IMG/VR virus record: IMGVR_UViG_3300027747_002427
Length of the DNA stretch: 64,000 bases
Origin: a virus
Lineage: Duplodnaviria; Caudoviricetes
Reading direction: 5' to 3' (one strand)
Below are positions 41,486-46,395 of this stretch, one piece after another. Within the stretch, counting starts at the first letter, position 1, and each line of letters opens with the position of its first letter. The notes under the pieces were generated by a model. It was not told the DNA's origin and searched no databases. It saw only the letters and a list, made by a program, of their open reading frames with translations. The translations under genes were made by a program, and so were the position numbers.

Positions 41486-41791
41486 ATGGCTCGCATAGTC
41501 CATTGGGGTGGCCAGGATTATAAAGTCTTAGATGGTCAAAAGTCTTATGGACCATTTGATAAACAAGAAGCTCAAGACTTTCTAAAAGAATTAGAAGATC
41601 TAAATGCTCCAGCCTCTTACGAAGATTTTAAAAAACTATTTGGACCCGTTCAAGCTCAACTTAGAAAAGATGTAGCAGAAAGAGAAGCTGCTAGAGCTGA
41701 AGAAGAAAAGAAAAGAAAAGCAGCTGGCGAAGCTGAATTAAAAAGTCTTTCATTCAAGAGACATTTCTCAGACTCTCAACGTCTTTCCTAA
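41486..41791 (+). CDS. Hypothetical protein
   Basis: 101-aa ORF. Confidence 0.5.
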   Translation: MARIVHWGGQDYKVLDGQKSYGPFDKQEAQDFLKELEDLNAPASYEDFKKLFGPVQAQLRKDVAEREAARAEEEKKRKAAGEAELKSLSFKRHFSDSQRLS

Positions 41792-42886
41792 GCTAGTAAC
41801 TGTAGCTTTGTTTCCGTGAACCACAATAGGTTCTACACCAATTACATCATCTGTGTAATTGATAATTGAGAATCCGTTTTGCCAATTACAATTAGGAGCA
41901 TAGTCTGGATCCATCTTACAAGCACAAGCATTCTCATAGTTAGTATTATAAATGTCTCCGCGAAGACCAGCTGCTGGAATTCTTTGACAAGTCATTCCCA
42001 TTCTATGAGTATGATTAGTCATAGTAGAAGTCATCTTCTTCTCCCACTCTCCACGAGCAGACATAGCTCCAATCTTTCTAACAACTGTTCCGTGATAGAC
42101 AATAAAGTTTGTTGGAAGAATAACCTCATCAACTAACTTGATTCTACTCCAGGACTCCTTAGGAAAGAAAAGATTCTGATATGAAAGTTCATCTTTAGCA
42201 ATCTCTGCTAACTCTCCAAGCTGAGCACTAAGATATCTCCAAAGCCTTCCTTCAACGGAATTACCGGAATGATTAGCATTAGTCTCTAAAATCTCTGAAC
42301 CAAATGGTTCTGTAACATCATGAAGAAGCTTTAAGAATTTATGATATGCTTCTCTCTCCTTAATAAGACTTTGCTTGTAACGAGCGTCCTTTGGATACTT
42401 GCTTACTGCAAACATATCCATAGTATCTCCATTGAGAATAACCTTCTCTGGTTTAGTCTCTGCAACGGTTTGTAAGAAAAGGTCTAAAGTATTCCAATCC
42501 TCACAACCAAAATGTGTATCTCCAATAACACAAGCAATCTTATTAGCTTCTTGTCTTACCTTTGTTCTCTCTGGTGCTGGATAAACAATAGGTGCTAACT
42601 CTTGAATAAACTGTTTAGCATCCCTATCTTGAGCAGATTGTGATAGAATAGAAGCAATGGGATCAGCTGGAACATAAACATCTTCACCATCTAATTCTCC
42701 ATCCTCTGTATAGTATTCATCTACAATAGTAGTAACTGTATGATGCTTACGACCTGATACCCAATCAAATATAGTTGATCTAGGTACTCCTAGAAGATTA
42801 GATATTTCAGTCTTAGACTTACCTTGTTGAAAGAGTTCCTGTGCTAAGGATTTCTTCTGATCGCGTGTTAGAATGTTATTAGACAT
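41768..42886 (-). CDS. N-terminal HTH plus calcineurin-like metallophosphoesterase
   Basis: KSKTEISNLLGVPRSTIFDW (HTH); GDTHFG, LNGDTMD, NANH and NHTH motifs. Confidence 0.8.
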   Translation of the reverse strand: MSNNILTRDQKKSLAQELFQQGKSKTEISNLLGVPRSTIFDWVSGRKHHTVTTIVDEYYTEDGELDGEDVYVPADPIASILSQSAQDRDAKQFIQELAPIVYPAPERTKVRQEANKIACVIGDTHFGCEDWNTLDLFLQTVAETKPEKVILNGDTMDMFAVSKYPKDARYKQSLIKEREAYHKFLKLLHDVTEPFGSEILETNANHSGNSVEGRLWRYLSAQLGELAEIAKDELSYQNLFFPKESWSRIKLVDEVILPTNFIVYHGTVVRKIGAMSARGEWEKKMTSTMTNHTHRMGMTCQRIPAAGLRGDIYNTNYENACACKMDPDYAPNCNWQNGFSIINYTDDVIGVEPIVVHGNKATVTSLGKTLRV

Positions 42887-42983
42887 TGTTTCTATATTAA
42901 TAAAGCTTTACGATATATCAAGTATTAATTTTAAAGGATTCTTTTGGGTTGATCTTTCCCTAATTATTACATATTATATATAC

Positions 42984-43610
42984 ATGAAGAATAACAACAA
43001 CCTAACAGAAGCATACACCGCAGTTTATATGGAGAACATCACCACCGAGACTGGTGCAGAGCACACCCAGGAACTCATCACCCAGCTCCTTGATTATCTT
43101 AGCAAGGGGCAGACTATTGCATCCTTCTTGTACAAGTCCAAAGGGCTTGGTGAAACCGCTCTTTACAATGTTCATTTGAATGTTGACTATAAGAAGGCTA
43201 AGGAAGAAGACTATAAGAAGCTCGAGGCTTATGAGCCAGAGACAGAATTGGAAGGTCAAGCCAAGGAGCACCTCCTTAATCTCTATCGTAATCCTAAGGC
43301 TCGCACACAGAAGCAAATGGATACCTACACCAATTATGGCAAAGGTATCAGGGTTAATAATAACAACGGCTTGTTGCATCTCTTTGGTTATAAGATCAAC
43401 AAGAGCACAGTTGCCGATGGTGTCGAGAAGAAAGACACTCGTAAGGAGCTTACAAAGGCTTGCGACGACCTCAAAGCCAAGCTTAACTTCCTTCACCAGA
43501 AGATTCGTGATTTTATTCTTGATCCTCAACACATTGCAGGTCTCAAAGCTAAGGGTAATGTGATTGAATTCCAACAGGATGACAATGGTGATAGCACCGG
43601 AGGAGTGTAA
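42984..43610 (+). CDS. Hypothetical protein under cassette-type promoter (MKNNN...)
   Basis: TTGATC(42949)-17-TATTAT-6-ATG(42984). The track start 42873 lies upstream of this promoter. Confidence 0.65.
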   Translation: MKNNNNLTEAYTAVYMENITTETGAEHTQELITQLLDYLSKGQTIASFLYKSKGLGETALYNVHLNVDYKKAKEEDYKKLEAYEPETELEGQAKEHLLNLYRNPKARTQKQMDTYTNYGKGIRVNNNNGLLHLFGYKINKSTVADGVEKKDTRKELTKACDDLKAKLNFLHQKIRDFILDPQHIAGLKAKGNVIEFQQDDNGDSTGGV

Positions 43611-43618
43611 ATAGTTTA

Positions 43619-44590
43619 GTGAATTTTAAAGAATTCTTTAAAGAAGCTAAATACCATCCTTCTAGAGCAGCAGGTCGCATATACAAAGCACCTAAAACCT
43701 GGAAGGATGTATTCTTTATCGAAAAGGATACAGCAAAGGAACCAGTTGAGAATTATAAGTTTACAGAAAATAAAACAGATAATACTATAGCTCGACTCTT
43801 TGGTTCTTTAAAGAAAGGTAATGTTCATGCCGCTAGTGTCTATGATTCACTTGTAAACACGACATCAGATTTAAAGTTATTCCTTTTCCATTTATCTAAA
43901 TCAAGAAGAGACTCTGATAAAAAATCAGAAGATCCAGTTACATTAAGATTAAGAAAAGAATATTACGATTCGGTTGTAGATAATACAGCTGCTATAGTTA
44001 ATAATTTATTAATTGAAAAACCTGATTCAACAGTTTTGTATATTCATTCAAGATCTCCTTTTAACGAAGCAGTTAAAGATAAAGTAGGAGCAACCGATAA
44101 ACAATTAGTACCTAAGAATACTTTAGGTGATCTAGTAGAAAGATATAGAAAAGATCCTTATTGTATTGATAAATTAGTTTCTGCTAAGAACACATCAGTT
44201 GCTAGAAAAGATATAGCCAAAGATGCTTTGATAAAACTTTTAAATATATCTAAAGACGATGAAGAATTAAAAAATGAACCCCTTTCTGTAGAAAAAATAT
44301 CAAAACTTATTATAGATAAAGATCTTATAGATTTAAATAAAGTAGCTTCTGGTGATATACAATTTGCTTCAAGATCAAATTATCTTCAAGCAGCATTTCT
44401 TCCGGAAGGTTTCTTTAATTTTGAAAATGTAAAATTAGAAAACAAATCTGTAATAGTTATAGACGATAATATTAATACCAAAGCAACCTATGATGAGATC
44501 AATCAAAAGATCAAAGAGAAGTATGGATACAAAAATATTGATTGGGTCGTTGGAGTTATTCCTAACGATGTATTACAAACTATAAAATAA
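43619..44590 (+). CDS. Protein with C-terminal type I phosphoribosyltransferase-like motif
   Basis: SVIVIDDNINTKAT resembles the PRPP-binding loop; leader FKEFFKEA. Confidence 0.5.
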   Translation: MNFKEFFKEAKYHPSRAAGRIYKAPKTWKDVFFIEKDTAKEPVENYKFTENKTDNTIARLFGSLKKGNVHAASVYDSLVNTTSDLKLFLFHLSKSRRDSDKKSEDPVTLRLRKEYYDSVVDNTAAIVNNLLIEKPDSTVLYIHSRSPFNEAVKDKVGATDKQLVPKNTLGDLVERYRKDPYCIDKLVSAKNTSVARKDIAKDALIKLLNISKDDEELKNEPLSVEKISKLIIDKDLIDLNKVASGDIQFASRSNYLQAAFLPEGFFNFENVKLENKSVIVIDDNINTKATYDEINQKIKEKYGYKNIDWVVGVIPNDVLQTIK

Positions 44591-44591
44591 T

Positions 44592-45191
44592 ATGCAATTT
44601 AAAGAATTTATTAAAGAAGAAAGGAATGTAACGCCCGACATTAGAGATCACAATCTAGTTATTCTTTATGGTATGCCGGCTTCAGGTAAGTCAGCGGTTC
44701 TTAAATATGGTTTGATTAATCTTCCTAACATTCAAGTATTAACATCAGACAAGTGGACAGAGCTATTGGCTCGCAAAGAAAAGAAAGACTTGTCCAATCC
44801 GGAGAACACTAATGAATTGCATCATAGAGTATCTCCAAAGTTTGATAAACATCGTTACAATGCTACACACGTACGCAATAGGTCTAATATAGTTATAGAA
44901 AAGATTGGTAGTAGCTATCAAAAGCTTTTGGAACTTATAAATCAATCACAAGCAGATGGCTTTAGAATTGTATTAGTTTGGGTTAAAGTAGATTTAAAAA
45001 CATCTATAGAATCCAATCAAAGAAGAAATAGAAATGTTCCGGAAGAAAGAATTATGAATTCATATAAAAATACAGAATTACATTTCAATCAATTAGTTGA
45101 TAAAGTTGAAGAAGCATGGATCATAGATAATGACACGCATCCAAATTTCAATGACTTTAGAACTTCAAAATATATTAAAAGAATAAAATGA
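44592..45191 (+). CDS. P-loop kinase (AAA_33/zeta-toxin-like)
   Basis: LVILYGMPASGKS Walker A and SIESNQRRNRNVPE lid; leader MQFKEFIKEE. Confidence 0.7.
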   Translation: MQFKEFIKEERNVTPDIRDHNLVILYGMPASGKSAVLKYGLINLPNIQVLTSDKWTELLARKEKKDLSNPENTNELHHRVSPKFDKHRYNATHVRNRSNIVIEKIGSSYQKLLELINQSQADGFRIVLVWVKVDLKTSIESNQRRNRNVPEERIMNSYKNTELHFNQLVDKVEEAWIIDNDTHPNFNDFRTSKYIKRIK

Positions 45192-45385: not shown

Positions 45386-45633
45386 CATTAGAAGAAGAAA
45401 AAAACTACTGGAAAGAACTAGTCGAACAAATGGCTGGTAGCATGGACAAGACAGCTATGGAATTATATAAATGGCAAGAGATTGCAGCACGTCTTGTGGA
45501 ACATATTAATCCTTATTTGGATTGGCCAGAAGATCCAAAGATGTTAGCAACCTATGCAACTCTTAAAGATTATTATTATTTAAAAAATAATGTAAAAAGA
45601 AGTTGCAATGACCAGCAATTGGAGTTAATATAA
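45382..45633 (+). CDS. Hypothetical protein
   Basis: 83-aa ORF with ATGA overlap. Confidence 0.5.
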   Translation: MTLEEEKNYWKELVEQMAGSMDKTAMELYKWQEIAARLVEHINPYLDWPEDPKMLATYATLKDYYYLKNNVKRSCNDQQLELI

Positions 45634-45644
45634 ATAAATAAGAA

Positions 45645-45958
45645 TAGATCTTTGATAATACATTTTAAAAATTGCCAGTGTGGAAACACCGAGTAGATGA
45701 TTAAGTGGCTGCTTAATCTCTACAAGCTCTCAGCCAAAGAGGCTGGCTTATAATATAAAAAGTCTTTCATACCAATAATTTCTTTAGTAATGCTACTGGA
45801 GTAACCCCTCCAACCGTCTCAAGTCGGAGCAAAATGCAGAGAGATAAAGAAAATAAGTAGACTCGTTGATCCCGTCGATACCTACTAGTGGTGAGGGATA
45901 ACGTATAAAAGAAAAATAGGAGCTAAGGTTTTAGTCAAGCCAAGGCTCCTATTTTTTT
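45645..45958 (+). ncRNA. Candidate ~310-nt highly structured ncRNA with pseudoknot and terminator
   Basis: No ORF; TAAATA upstream; about eight complementary stems including a GNRA hairpin; ATCCC/GGGAT pseudoknot; 3' stem AAAAATAGGAGC/GCTCCTATTTTT with T-tract. Confidence 0.65.
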
Positions 45959-45996
45959 ATCTTGACCTTCCTCTAATAATTTAATATTATATATAG

Positions 45997-46395
45997 ATGA
46001 TCAGCACCACAATACCTTATCAATACAATGACGGTGGCTTCAAAGATTCTGGTATCCAGGATACTAATAATTGTACTATCGTAGCGTTCGCTATCATTAC
46101 AGGGCTAGATTATACTATTGCAGATCGCATTGGAGTTAAGACCAAAAGAGTTCGTCGCCGTGGACATTGGCCAGAGAAGATGGTAAACTATTCTAAAAGA
46201 GTTCATGGACTTAAATTTCGAAAGTTTAAATTCGCTTCTATTACCTTACAGAAGTTTCTCAAGAGGTTTCCGACCGGTAGATACTATGTTGCTAATAGAA
46301 GTCATTGCTTCGCTATTATTGATGGAGTTATCCATGATCATGGCATGTTGGTCAAACCCTTTCAAATTATTAAAGAAGCCTGGCAAGTACTATGA
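45997..46395 (+). CDS. Conserved phage protein with papain-like Cys/His pattern
   Basis: NNCTIVAFAIITG...HCFAIIDG..HD; cassette-type promoter TTGACC(45962)-17-TATTAT-6-ATG. Confidence 0.5.
   Translation: MISTTIPYQYNDGGFKDSGIQDTNNCTIVAFAIITGLDYTIADRIGVKTKRVRRRGHWPEKMVNYSKRVHGLKFRKFKFASITLQKFLKRFPTGRYYVANRSHCFAIIDGVIHDHGMLVKPFQIIKEAWQVL

What the first reader, a model, noticed from the sequence alone, without database searches (positions are those of the whole stretch)
45645..45958. ~310-nt orphan structured RNA with GNRA hairpin, multiway junction and pseudoknot
Seen, 5' hairpins: GTGT-GGAA-ACAC (45678-89); GTAGA.GATTAAG/CTTAATC.TCTAC (45693-723); AAGC.CAGCC/GGCTG.GCTT (45724-49). Seen, 3' domain: closed by TCTTTCATAC/GTATAAAAGA (45763-72/45903-12), containing TTTCTTTA/TAAAGAAA, TGCT/AGCA, TGGAG/CTCCA and AGTAG/CTACT stems, with loop ATCCC (45869-73) complementary to downstream GGGAT (45895-99), an H-type pseudoknot. 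It has its own TAAATA promoter, a boxA-like GATCTTTGATAA leader and a terminator. I cannot assign it to tmRNA, RNase P, 6S or SRP. Inference: a possibly new phage ncRNA class.
Basis: partly seen in the sequence, partly recalled or inferred. Interest (0 to 1): 0.68.

Follow-up and report, generated by a model that had tools for sequence, protein, structure and literature searches.

The report
Twister ribozyme inside phage RNA gene
The gene-free stretch is a real small non-coding RNA gene of an uncultured lake phage. Its middle third is an unannotated variant of the known self-cutting twister ribozyme, and this probably cuts the transcript between two small folded RNA pieces that match no described family.

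Summary
The region folds better than shuffles (z -4.06) and has no credible ORF.

It is not an orphan class. Positions 45779-45852 are a type-P1 twister self-cleaving ribozyme:
- Rfam RF03160 matches at 36.9 bits, E 2e-6, below the gathering score of 67.2.
- Both pseudoknots differ from the consensus by compensated changes.
- In 57 distinct phage copies the T1 middle pair is always paired (AU 21, UA 18, CG 12, GC 4, UG 2). P1 and P4 covary (score 0.409 against 0.120 shuffled, 0/500).
- The predicted cut is U45788^A45789.

The claimed H-type pseudoknot is instead the covarying outer helix of a plain hairpin (module G). AGTAG/CTACT is not conserved.

The unit reads: promoter, boxA-like leader (also found directly before the phage's tmRNA), 5' hairpin module H, twister, module G, terminator. 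Relatives keep leader, twister and order but swap other modules, none of them in Rfam.

Most likely it is a stable-RNA unit cut by its own ribozyme. Cleavage and transcription were not tested. This scan has noted twisters in phages many times on other DNA.

The parts
45603..45631 (+). Promoter-like site: -35 TTGCAA (45603-08), 17-nt spacer, -10 TAATAT (45626-31). It overlaps the stop of the upstream 83-aa ORF.
   Evidence: Read. The layout TTGCCA/TTGTCT-17-TATATT, then 15 nt, then GATCTTTG recurs in relatives L009 and L005. It scores 8 of 12 by my count against the rule, below that scan's 9-of-12 cut-off. Transcription was not shown.
45640..45666 (+). Conserved 5' leader AAGAATA-GATCTTTGATAATACATTTT (boxA-like).
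   Evidence: The exact 19-mer is found in 15 related loci plus L001, which is this genome's own copy. It always heads the RNA array. A second copy in this genome lies directly 5' of the tmRNA. In L003, L006 and L025 it lies 6 nt before tRNA-Met.
45673..45749 (+). Module H: three hairpins (45678-89; 45693-723 with loop UGGCUG; 45724-49), possibly a four-way junction closed by GCC/GGC.
   Evidence: MFE folds. Hairpins 1 and 2 keep pairing through compensatory changes in L003. The module was found only in this phage and the L003 lineage. No Rfam match.
45750..45778 (+). AU-rich linker with conserved AAAAGTCTTTCATACCAATAA.
   Evidence: 94% identical to L003, against about 70% for the flanking genes. 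Similar linkers precede the twister in D-module loci that have no 3' complement.
45779..45852 (+). Type-P1 twister ribozyme with P3. P1 45779-86/45845-52; UAA 45788-90; P2 45791-94/45835-38; T2 45795-96 with 45823-24; P3 45797-801/45808-12; P4 45814-15/45826-27; loop L4 45816-25; T1 45818-20 with 45841-43; catalytic G45839.
   Evidence: RF03160 at 36.9 bits, E 2e-6, full-length 1-68; E 8.3e-8 in the genome. Own model R1 gives 59.7 bits, E 1e-16, a single copy in the genome. Covariation over 57 copies.
45788..45789 (+). Predicted self-cleavage site U^A. The 5' product would end in a 2',3'-cyclic phosphate and the 3' product would begin with a 5'-OH.
   Evidence: This is the position of the invariant UAA after P1. 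The U-A cleavage site and catalytic G of solved twisters are described in PMC6154101. Cleavage was not tested.
45859..45903 (+). Module G. Conserved AGACU, then outer helix 45864-73/45895-903, 3-nt bulge 45874-76, GA(U) facing GA in a k-turn-like internal loop, and inner hairpin 45880-82/45890-92.
   Evidence: The same architecture comes from independent MFE folds of four homologues. The outer helix covaries: AUCCC/GGGAU, CCUU/GAGG, CUCC/GGAG, CUGGUGU/GCAUUAG. No Rfam match.
45912..45958 (+). Intrinsic terminator hairpin plus a T run of 7, with a conserved apical stem-loop (loop UAGUC, 45932-36).
   Evidence: MFE. The apical stem covaries (GGUU/AGCC, GCUU/AAGC, GUAU/AUAC) under an invariant TAGTCA in WIN, L003, L005 and L019.

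Best explanation
The stretch is a small stable-RNA transcription unit of an uncultured freshwater tailed phage. It runs promoter, conserved boxA-like leader, 5' hairpin module H, a type-P1 twister self-cleaving ribozyme, a k-turn-like hairpin (module G), and a terminator hairpin with a conserved loop.

Shown here: the twister fold and all its conserved core bases are present and evolutionarily maintained, and the unit is a member of a modular family.

Inferred: once transcribed, the ribozyme cuts between U45788 and A45789. This separates the upstream part (leader plus module H, about 150 nt, ending in a 2',3'-cyclic phosphate with only the 9-nt P1 strand and the cleavage-site U as tail) from the downstream part (ribozyme body, module G and terminator, about 170 nt, starting with 5'-OH). 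The ribozyme would thus act as a built-in 3'-end maker for the upstream RNA and free it from the terminator hairpin and U tail. The unusual ends should also slow host exonucleases and 5'-end-dependent RNases.

The leader is shared with the phage's tmRNA and with tRNA-Met in relatives. It most likely acts in transcription of untranslated RNA, like rrn boxA antitermination, or as a discarded precursor leader. What the released small RNAs do is unknown.
For: Twister identity:
- Full-length RF03160 match, E 2e-6, 8.3e-8 genome-wide.
- Every upper-case consensus base is kept except six. Four lie in the two pseudoknots and are pairwise compensated: T1 CCC:GGG to CUC:GAG, T2 GC:GC to AC:GU. The other two are the third C of GCC (U here) and the U of UAAA (C here).
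- A pattern left free at these positions returned 57 distinct phage copies with 57 of 57 paired at both. T1 middle pair: AU 21, UA 18, CG 12, GC 4, UG 2. T2: AU 55, GC 2.
- P1 and P4 covary. Whole-structure covariation is 0.409 against 0.120 +/- 0.010 shuffled (0 of 500) and at most 0.16 for slid partners.
- The catalytic G (first G of GAGAG) and the U-A site are in place.
- The window has the optional stem P3. Most relatives in this RNA family have P5 instead and L015 has both, as twisters are known to do.

Unit and modularity:
- One twister per genome fragment and per related locus.
- The order LEAD-[tRNA-Met]-{A|B|H}-[C]-[D]-TW-{E|F|G} holds in 13 of 19 distinct arrays. The other six lack a recognised leader within reach, or run off the locus.
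- WIN, L002 and L003 sit in the same gene slot but carry different modules.
- RNA parts are 75-94% identical to L003, against 69-71% for flanking genes.
- The leader abuts the tmRNA 5' end.
- A terminator and a separate promoter stand between the RNA and the next gene.
Against: - The match is below Rfam's gathering score (36.9 against 67.2).
- The inner P2 pair is U.U here, and is unpaired in 24 of the 57 copies.
- No cleavage assay and no transcript data exist.
- The 8-bp P1, and possibly the 10-bp stem 45763-72/45903-12, could hold the two products together after cutting, so separation is an assumption.
- Which product is the functional one is not known.
- The boxA reading rests on resemblance recalled from memory. 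A scan of 185,579 bacterial and archaeal genomes for the exact leader found only chance hits and none at an rRNA operon.
Confidence: 0.75

Rival explanations
1. One new, integral non-coding RNA class of about 310 nt. The whole fold acts as a single molecule, and the twister-like core is a structural scaffold that no longer cuts.
For: - Modules H and G and the terminator loop match no Rfam family.
- The stem 45763-72/45903-12 together with P1 could keep everything in one folded body.
- The twister scores below the Rfam threshold.
Against: - The catalytic G, the U-A site and both pseudoknots are kept intact across 57 copies. This is what selection for cleavage predicts.
- The flanking modules are freely exchanged between relatives in the same gene slot, so they are not one co-evolving fold.
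- The closing stem is absent from L005 and L019.
Confidence: 0.1
2. A cis-acting 5' regulatory leader or mRNA-processing element for the downstream 132-aa gene, as with many phage twisters that sit just before a gene and pair with its ribosome-binding site.
For: - Many of the 57 related twisters have a purine-rich, Shine-Dalgarno-like P1 3' strand directly before a gene.
- The 132-aa gene follows the RNA in WIN, L002 and L003.
Against: - Here P1 3' is AUAAAGAAA.
- The next ATG is about 145 nt further on, behind a strong terminator (stem plus T7) and its own TTGACC-17-TATTAT promoter.
- In most relatives the same RNA family lies in tRNA/tmRNA clusters and is followed by a terminator or a tRNA, not this gene.
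Confidence: 0.07
3. The ribozyme ends feed an RNA repair or ligation step, such as circularisation or joining, carried out by the neighbouring Pnkp-like kinase and metallophosphoesterase genes.
For: - The 199-aa ORF 44592-45191 is an AAA_33 P-loop kinase with weak Pnkp, T4-type polynucleotide kinase and PSTK matches.
- A metallophosphoesterase lies at 41768-42886.
- Both are syntenic with the RNA in the L003 lineage.
Against: - No ligase was found. The 323-aa ORF between them has no family match, and its only lead is phosphoribosyltransferase-like.
- There is only one ribozyme per unit, so no excised segment with two ribozyme-made ends.
- The kinase synteny is limited to close relatives, and most arrays lie in other contexts.
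Confidence: 0.05

Closest known systems
Type-P1 twister self-cleaving ribozyme (Roth et al. 2014; Rfam RF03160, clan CL00120; structures 4OJI, 4RGE reviewed in PMC6154101)
   Same: P1-UAA-P2-(P3)-P4 loop GUCNCAAGNC-(P5)-AAA-P2'-GAGNG-P1' layout. Double pseudoknot T1/T2. U-A cleavage dinucleotide. Catalytic G. Optional P3 or P5.
   Different: T1 is CUC:GAG and T2 is AC:GU instead of CCC:GGG and GC:GC. The inner P2 pair is U.U. The score is 36.9 bits, below the 67.2 gathering score, so Rfam-based annotation misses it. It sits inside a non-coding stable-RNA unit, not before a protein gene.
Stable small RNAs of the phage T4 tRNA gene cluster (species 1 and 2, also called RNA C and D). Recalled from memory, not checked here.
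   Same: Small, folded phage RNAs of unknown function, co-transcribed with or next to tRNAs and cut out of a longer precursor.
   Different: I recall no ribozyme in T4, where processing is by host RNases. No sequence comparison was made.
GOLLD and ROOL, large ornate phage-associated RNAs next to tRNA genes (Weinberg et al. 2009, 2017; Rfam RF01998, RF03087; accession numbers and citations recalled from memory)
   Same: Phage-borne, beside tRNAs in relatives, with a variable modular 5' part and unknown function.
   Different: No Rfam match even at permissive E-values. The window's unit is only about 320 nt. It is made of separately closed modules rather than one giant fold, and it contains a ribozyme.
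rrn boxA antitermination leader (NusB/S10 site, E. coli UGCUCUUUAACAA). Recalled from memory.
   Same: A U-rich CUUUGA/CUUUAA core close to the 5' end of untranslated stable-RNA transcripts. The L006/L025 version GAUCUUUAACAG is nearer still.
   Different: No binding or antitermination data. It also lies directly before tRNA and tmRNA 5' ends, where it would be removed. The exact motif was not found at bacterial rRNA operons.

Membership tests
Twister ribozyme, type P1 (RF03160) | Nested helices P1, P2, P4 in the canonical order, supported by covariation | tested here: met
   All 9 P1 pairs and all 4 P4 pairs show changes on both sides. Covariation score is 0.409 against 0.120 shuffled (0 of 500), and slid controls are at most 0.16. 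P2 is invariant by the design of the search pattern.
Twister ribozyme, type P1 (RF03160) | Double pseudoknot: T1 (L4 with L1 3' strand) and T2 (L4 with L2) | tested here: met
   Window: CUC 45818-20 with GAG 45841-43; AC 45795-96 with GU 45823-24. With these positions left free in the pattern, 57 of 57 copies pair at both. T1 shows five pair types.
Twister ribozyme, type P1 (RF03160) | Conserved core bases including the U-A cleavage site and the catalytic guanine | tested here: met
   The cmscan alignment keeps UAA, GC of P2, GUC-CAAG-C, AAA and GAG-G. Of the six upper-case bases that differ, four are the compensated pseudoknot positions and two are not compensated (third C of GCC; U of UAAA). 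The catalytic G is mapped as the first G of GAGNG from the env22 numbering (G48, A49, A50) in PMC6154101.
Twister ribozyme, type P1 (RF03160) | Score at or above Rfam's gathering threshold | tested here: not met
   36.9 bits against 67.2. Relatives score 21.9-45.3 bits. This is a curation threshold, not a biological feature.
Twister ribozyme, type P1 (RF03160) | Site-specific self-cleavage giving a 2',3'-cyclic phosphate and a 5'-OH | not testable with these tools
   Needs an in vitro transcript, or end-specific RNA-seq. The read-laying route was closed.
GOLLD / ROOL / other described large or small RNAs (all 4227 Rfam 15 families) | Match of modules H, G or the terminator loop to a family model | tested here: not met
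   At E up to 10 only noise hits (E 0.9 or weaker, 13.8-18.8 bits) outside the twister. Nothing at the gathering threshold except the tRNAs elsewhere in the window.
tRNA / tmRNA (for module H) | Cloverleaf recognised by ARAGORN or Rfam | tested here: not met
   ARAGORN and Rfam call no tRNA or tmRNA at 45645-45958. A four-way junction is only one of two possible folds.
rrn-type boxA antitermination leader | Position near the 5' end of stable-RNA transcription units | tested here: met
   It heads this unit, the tmRNA gene (abutting its 5' end) and the tRNA-Met-led arrays of relatives.
rrn-type boxA antitermination leader | Sequence identity with host boxA, and NusB/S10 binding | tested here: inconclusive
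   The resemblance to UGCUCUUUAACAA is recalled, not computed. A genome-wide scan for the exact 19-mer gave 5 chance hits, none at rRNA operons. The host is unknown and binding is not testable.
Kink-turn (for module G) | C-stem, 3-nt bulge, tandem G.A/A.G, then NC-stem | tested here: inconclusive
   All four homologues read helix-NNN-GA-U-helix on one strand and helix-GA-helix on the other.

The most novel reading that the evidence does not exclude
The unit is the smallest member of an undescribed system. In it, lake phages transcribe strings of separately folded, interchangeable small RNAs (modules A-H here) behind an rrn-like antitermination leader that is shared with their tmRNA and tRNA genes. 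A single dedicated twister ribozyme at a fixed place sets the 3' end of the payload. The modules would act as mimics or decoys of host RNAs or as protein-binding RNAs, which would give twister ribozymes a defined natural job in non-coding RNA maturation.
Probability: 0.25. Interest if true: 0.7.

Novelty: new variant of a known kind. Interest (0 to 1): 0.42.

Why it matters
The natural role of bacterial and phage twister ribozymes is still open (PMC6765202). Most phage copies sit before protein genes. Here one sits at a fixed place inside a purely non-coding unit, after the payload modules and before a short hairpin and terminator. That gives a clean, testable case for a role in RNA 3'-end formation.

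The result also shows that Rfam's twister-P1 threshold misses a whole set of phage variants whose pseudoknot pairs have covaried.

Finally, it points to several small phage RNA modules, and to a leader shared with tmRNA and tRNA genes, that have no described family. For the finding as written, the practical outcome is a downgrade: the "new class" is mostly a known ribozyme.

Tried and rejected
- **BLAST against 50,697 GenBank phage records, near and distant modes:** no match.
- **IMG/VR pattern scan for module G (GACTCGT..GATAC..GTGAG):** 97 distinct hits, of which 93 are chance matches (many in coding-looking sequence).
- **Pattern scan for the module H loop (TTAAGTGGCTGCTTAA):** only the window and the L003 lineage (L017 and L027 are further loci on the same contigs). 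The other 16 are chance matches.
- **Metagenome scan with the terminator-loop pattern:** only L005's own contig and an identical copy of the window's RNA, so no new variants.
- **Genome scan for the leader:** 5 chance hits.
- **RNA-repair cassette idea (kinase + phosphoesterase + ligase next to the ribozyme):** no ligase found. The 323-aa ORF has no Pfam, PHROG, NCBIfam or PDB match and only a phosphoribosyltransferase-like lead.
- **Other ribozyme classes (hammerhead, pistol, hatchet, twister-sister, HDV-like) in the flanks:** no Rfam hit at E up to 10.
rejected, because they are absent from the homologues.
- **PHROG scan of large ORFs to confirm a T4-like phage:** only tail-fibre families were found. 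The "T4-like" label therefore comes from earlier notes and was not checked here.

Full report
**The observation.** The region 45645-45958 lies between an 83-aa ORF ending at 45633 and a 132-aa ORF starting at 45997, both on the + strand. The only ORF of 30 aa or more that touches it is a 37-aa minus-strand frame at its 5' edge. The + strand folds at -86.5 kcal/mol against -66.1 +/- 5.0 for dinucleotide shuffles (z -4.06). The minus strand gives z -3.96, so energy does not choose the strand. No Rfam family reaches its gathering score in the region.

**What the core is.** A permissive Rfam scan of 45500-46100 gives one clear hit: twister-P1 (RF03160) at 45784-45847, full model length, 36.9 bits, E 2e-6, with a gathering score of 67.2. 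The next best hit has E 0.9. The same hit has E 8.3e-8 against the whole 106.8-kb viral record.
- TTTCTTTA/TAAAGAAA is P1.
- TGCT is the 5' strand of P2.
- TGGAG/CTCCA is the optional P3.

Six upper-case consensus bases differ. Four of them are the two pseudoknot pairs, and both changes are compensated: T1 CCC:GGG becomes CUC:GAG, and T2 GC:GC becomes AC:GU. The other two are the third C of GCC (U here) and the U of UAAA (C here).

**Testing the fold on other sequences.**
- A pattern fixing this variant found 26 IMG/VR loci.
- A second pattern, left free at the T1 middle pair and the T2 outer pair, found 70 loci with 57 distinct copies.
- All 57 are paired at both free positions. T1 is AU 21, UA 18, CG 12, GC 4, UG 2. 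T2 is AU 55, GC 2.
- On the alignment A1, the twister structure with both pseudoknots has a covariation score of 0.409, against 0.120 +/- 0.010 in shuffles (0 of 500 reach it) and at most 0.16 when partners are slid.
- All P1 and P4 pairs change on both sides.

The invariant UAA places the scissile bond at U45788^A45789. The first G of GAGAG (G45839) corresponds to the catalytic guanine of the solved twisters, by the env22 numbering given in PMC6154101. The window's copy has P3. Most relatives in this RNA family have P5 instead and L015 has both, which is the known behaviour of the optional twister stems. A model built from A1 finds exactly one copy in the held genome (59.7 bits, E 1e-16) and one per related locus. 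I therefore file the core as a twister-class ribozyme that Rfam's threshold misses. Cleavage itself was not tested.

**The rest of the RNA: module G and the terminator.** They form the distal part of an ordinary helix (45864-73 with 45895-903). In L003, L005 and L019 this helix is kept with different sequence: CCUU/GAGG, CUCC/GGAG and CUGGUGU/GCAUUAG. Independent MFE folds of all four give the same hairpin. The AGTAG/CTACT stem that would make this a pseudoknot is absent from all three homologues. The hairpin (module G) carries a conserved internal loop:
- a 3-nt bulge, then GA and a U on one strand;
- GA on the other strand.

This reads like a kink-turn, but I could not test that. The terminator hairpin has a covarying apical stem under an invariant UAGUC loop, so it is probably more than a terminator.

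**The rest of the RNA: module H and the closing stem.** Upstream of the twister, hairpins 45678-89 and 45693-723 keep pairing through compensatory changes in L003, although the GNRA loop is not conserved. The third hairpin has an alternative form that one compensatory change favours. That form would leave loop CAGCCA free to pair with loop UGGCUG of hairpin 2. This is inference from two sequences only. The closing stem 45763-72/45903-12 recurs only with identical sequence in L003 and is missing in L005 and L019, so it cannot be judged. Modules H and G match nothing in Rfam. I found them in only two and four lineages respectively.

**The context.** The window's unit is the smallest member of a modular family. 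In 13 of 19 distinct related arrays the order is:
- leader;
- optional tRNA-Met;
- one of the modules A, B or H;
- optional C;
- optional D;
- twister;
- one of E, F or G;
- terminator or tRNA.

The other six lack a recognised leader within reach, or run off the locus. Each module is closed by its own terminal stem and separated from the next by AU-rich linkers. None of A-F is in Rfam. WIN, L002 and L003 occupy the same slot between the same protein genes but carry different module sets. The window's P3 hairpin recurs inside module F of L002, so modules are exchanged. Most other arrays lie in tRNA/tmRNA clusters. RNA parts are 75-94% identical between WIN and L003, against 69-71% for the flanking genes.

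**The leader.** GATCTTTGATA(A/G)TACATTT heads every array in which it was found. It lies 15 nt after a -10 box in WIN, L005 and L009. In this genome it has a second copy that abuts the 5' end of a tmRNA gene (RF00023, 92.4 bits). The leader resembles rrn boxA (recalled, not computed). The exact motif was not found at bacterial rRNA operons.

**Mechanism.**
- Shown: a conserved twister with intact catalytic bases sits at a fixed place between payload modules and a short 3' hairpin plus terminator, in a non-coding unit.
- Inferred: it self-cleaves at U45788^A45789. The upstream RNA would be released with only a 10-nt tail and a cyclic phosphate end. The downstream RNA would begin with 5'-OH. The ribozyme would then be a built-in 3'-end maker that removes the terminator and U tail from the payload.
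- Inferred: the other junctions of longer arrays would be cut by host RNases at the AU-rich linkers, and by RNase P next to tRNA or tmRNA.
- Inferred: the leader aids transcription of untranslated RNA.
- Unknown: the function of modules H and G.

**Rivals considered.**
- A non-cutting scaffold in one integral RNA. The conserved catalytic core and the module swapping argue against it.
- A leader for the 132-aa gene. That gene has its own promoter behind a terminator, and relatives have other neighbours.
- Coupling to the neighbouring Pnkp-like kinase. No ligase was found, the synteny is narrow, and there is only one ribozyme per unit.

**Comparison and novelty.** The core is a member of the twister class by every structural criterion tested, and fails only the curated bit threshold. 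The unit as a whole resembles the stable RNAs of the T4 tRNA region and, loosely, GOLLD/ROOL. It is a member of neither. I did not re-examine those loci. The finding is thus a new sequence variant and an unusual non-coding context of a known ribozyme, flanked by small undescribed RNA modules. It is not a new class of 310-nt RNA.

Noticed in passing
outside the window: G000:C1:2267-2724, minus strand (about 8.3 kb beyond the window's end): Phage tmRNA gene (RF00023, 92.4 bits) that ARAGORN misses. Its 5' end abuts a copy of the same GATCTTTGATAA leader, behind a TTGTAT-17-TATATT promoter.
   Followed up: partly
window 45962-45999: The 132-aa gene has a TTGACC-17-TATTAT promoter ending 7 nt before its ATG. 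This suggests a leaderless message, as earlier notes describe for other genes of this phage.
   Followed up: no
L002:2911-2924 and window 45798-45811: The 14-nt hairpin GGAGUAACCCCUCC is P3 of the twister in the window. In the closest relative it sits inside a different module (F), downstream of a twister that lacks P3, so the hairpin appears to have moved.
   Followed up: partly
L002-L030, for example L018:880-1560, L009:5180-5750, L025:640-1330: Related phages carry six further closed RNA modules (A, B, C, D, E, F; about 30 to 190 nt each) in a fixed order around the twister, next to tRNA and tmRNA genes. None matches Rfam at E up to 0.1.
   Followed up: partly
L036, L044, L060, L061, L065, L071, L073: Seven AT-rich twister copies (T1 C:G, ending CTGCAGAGGG) lie on contigs all labelled as one giant-virus MAG (GVMAG-S-3300012954-83).
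   Followed up: no
L005:5756-5988, minus strand: Group I intron match (RF00028, 85.5 bits) overlapping a sub-threshold tmRNA match (45 bits) in a related phage contig. This may be an intron-bearing tmRNA or tRNA region.
   Followed up: no
window 41768-45191: A Pnkp-like P-loop kinase (44592-45191) and an HTH-metallophosphoesterase (41768-42886, minus strand) flank a 323-aa ORF with no family match (its only lead is phosphoribosyltransferase-like). The block is syntenic in the L003 lineage.
   Followed up: partly
L029:2642-2704, minus strand: A minimal 43-nt twister core (no P3, no P5) between two ORFs in an unrelated phage contig. It has the same CUC:GAG / AC:GU pseudoknot variant and a perfect 8-bp P1.
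   Followed up: no
L213 (Ga0114963_10020987) 1500-2250: Over the roughly 800 nt shown, the RNA unit and its flanks are to the eye identical in a second metagenome sample, so the phage is not a one-off assembly.
   Followed up: no
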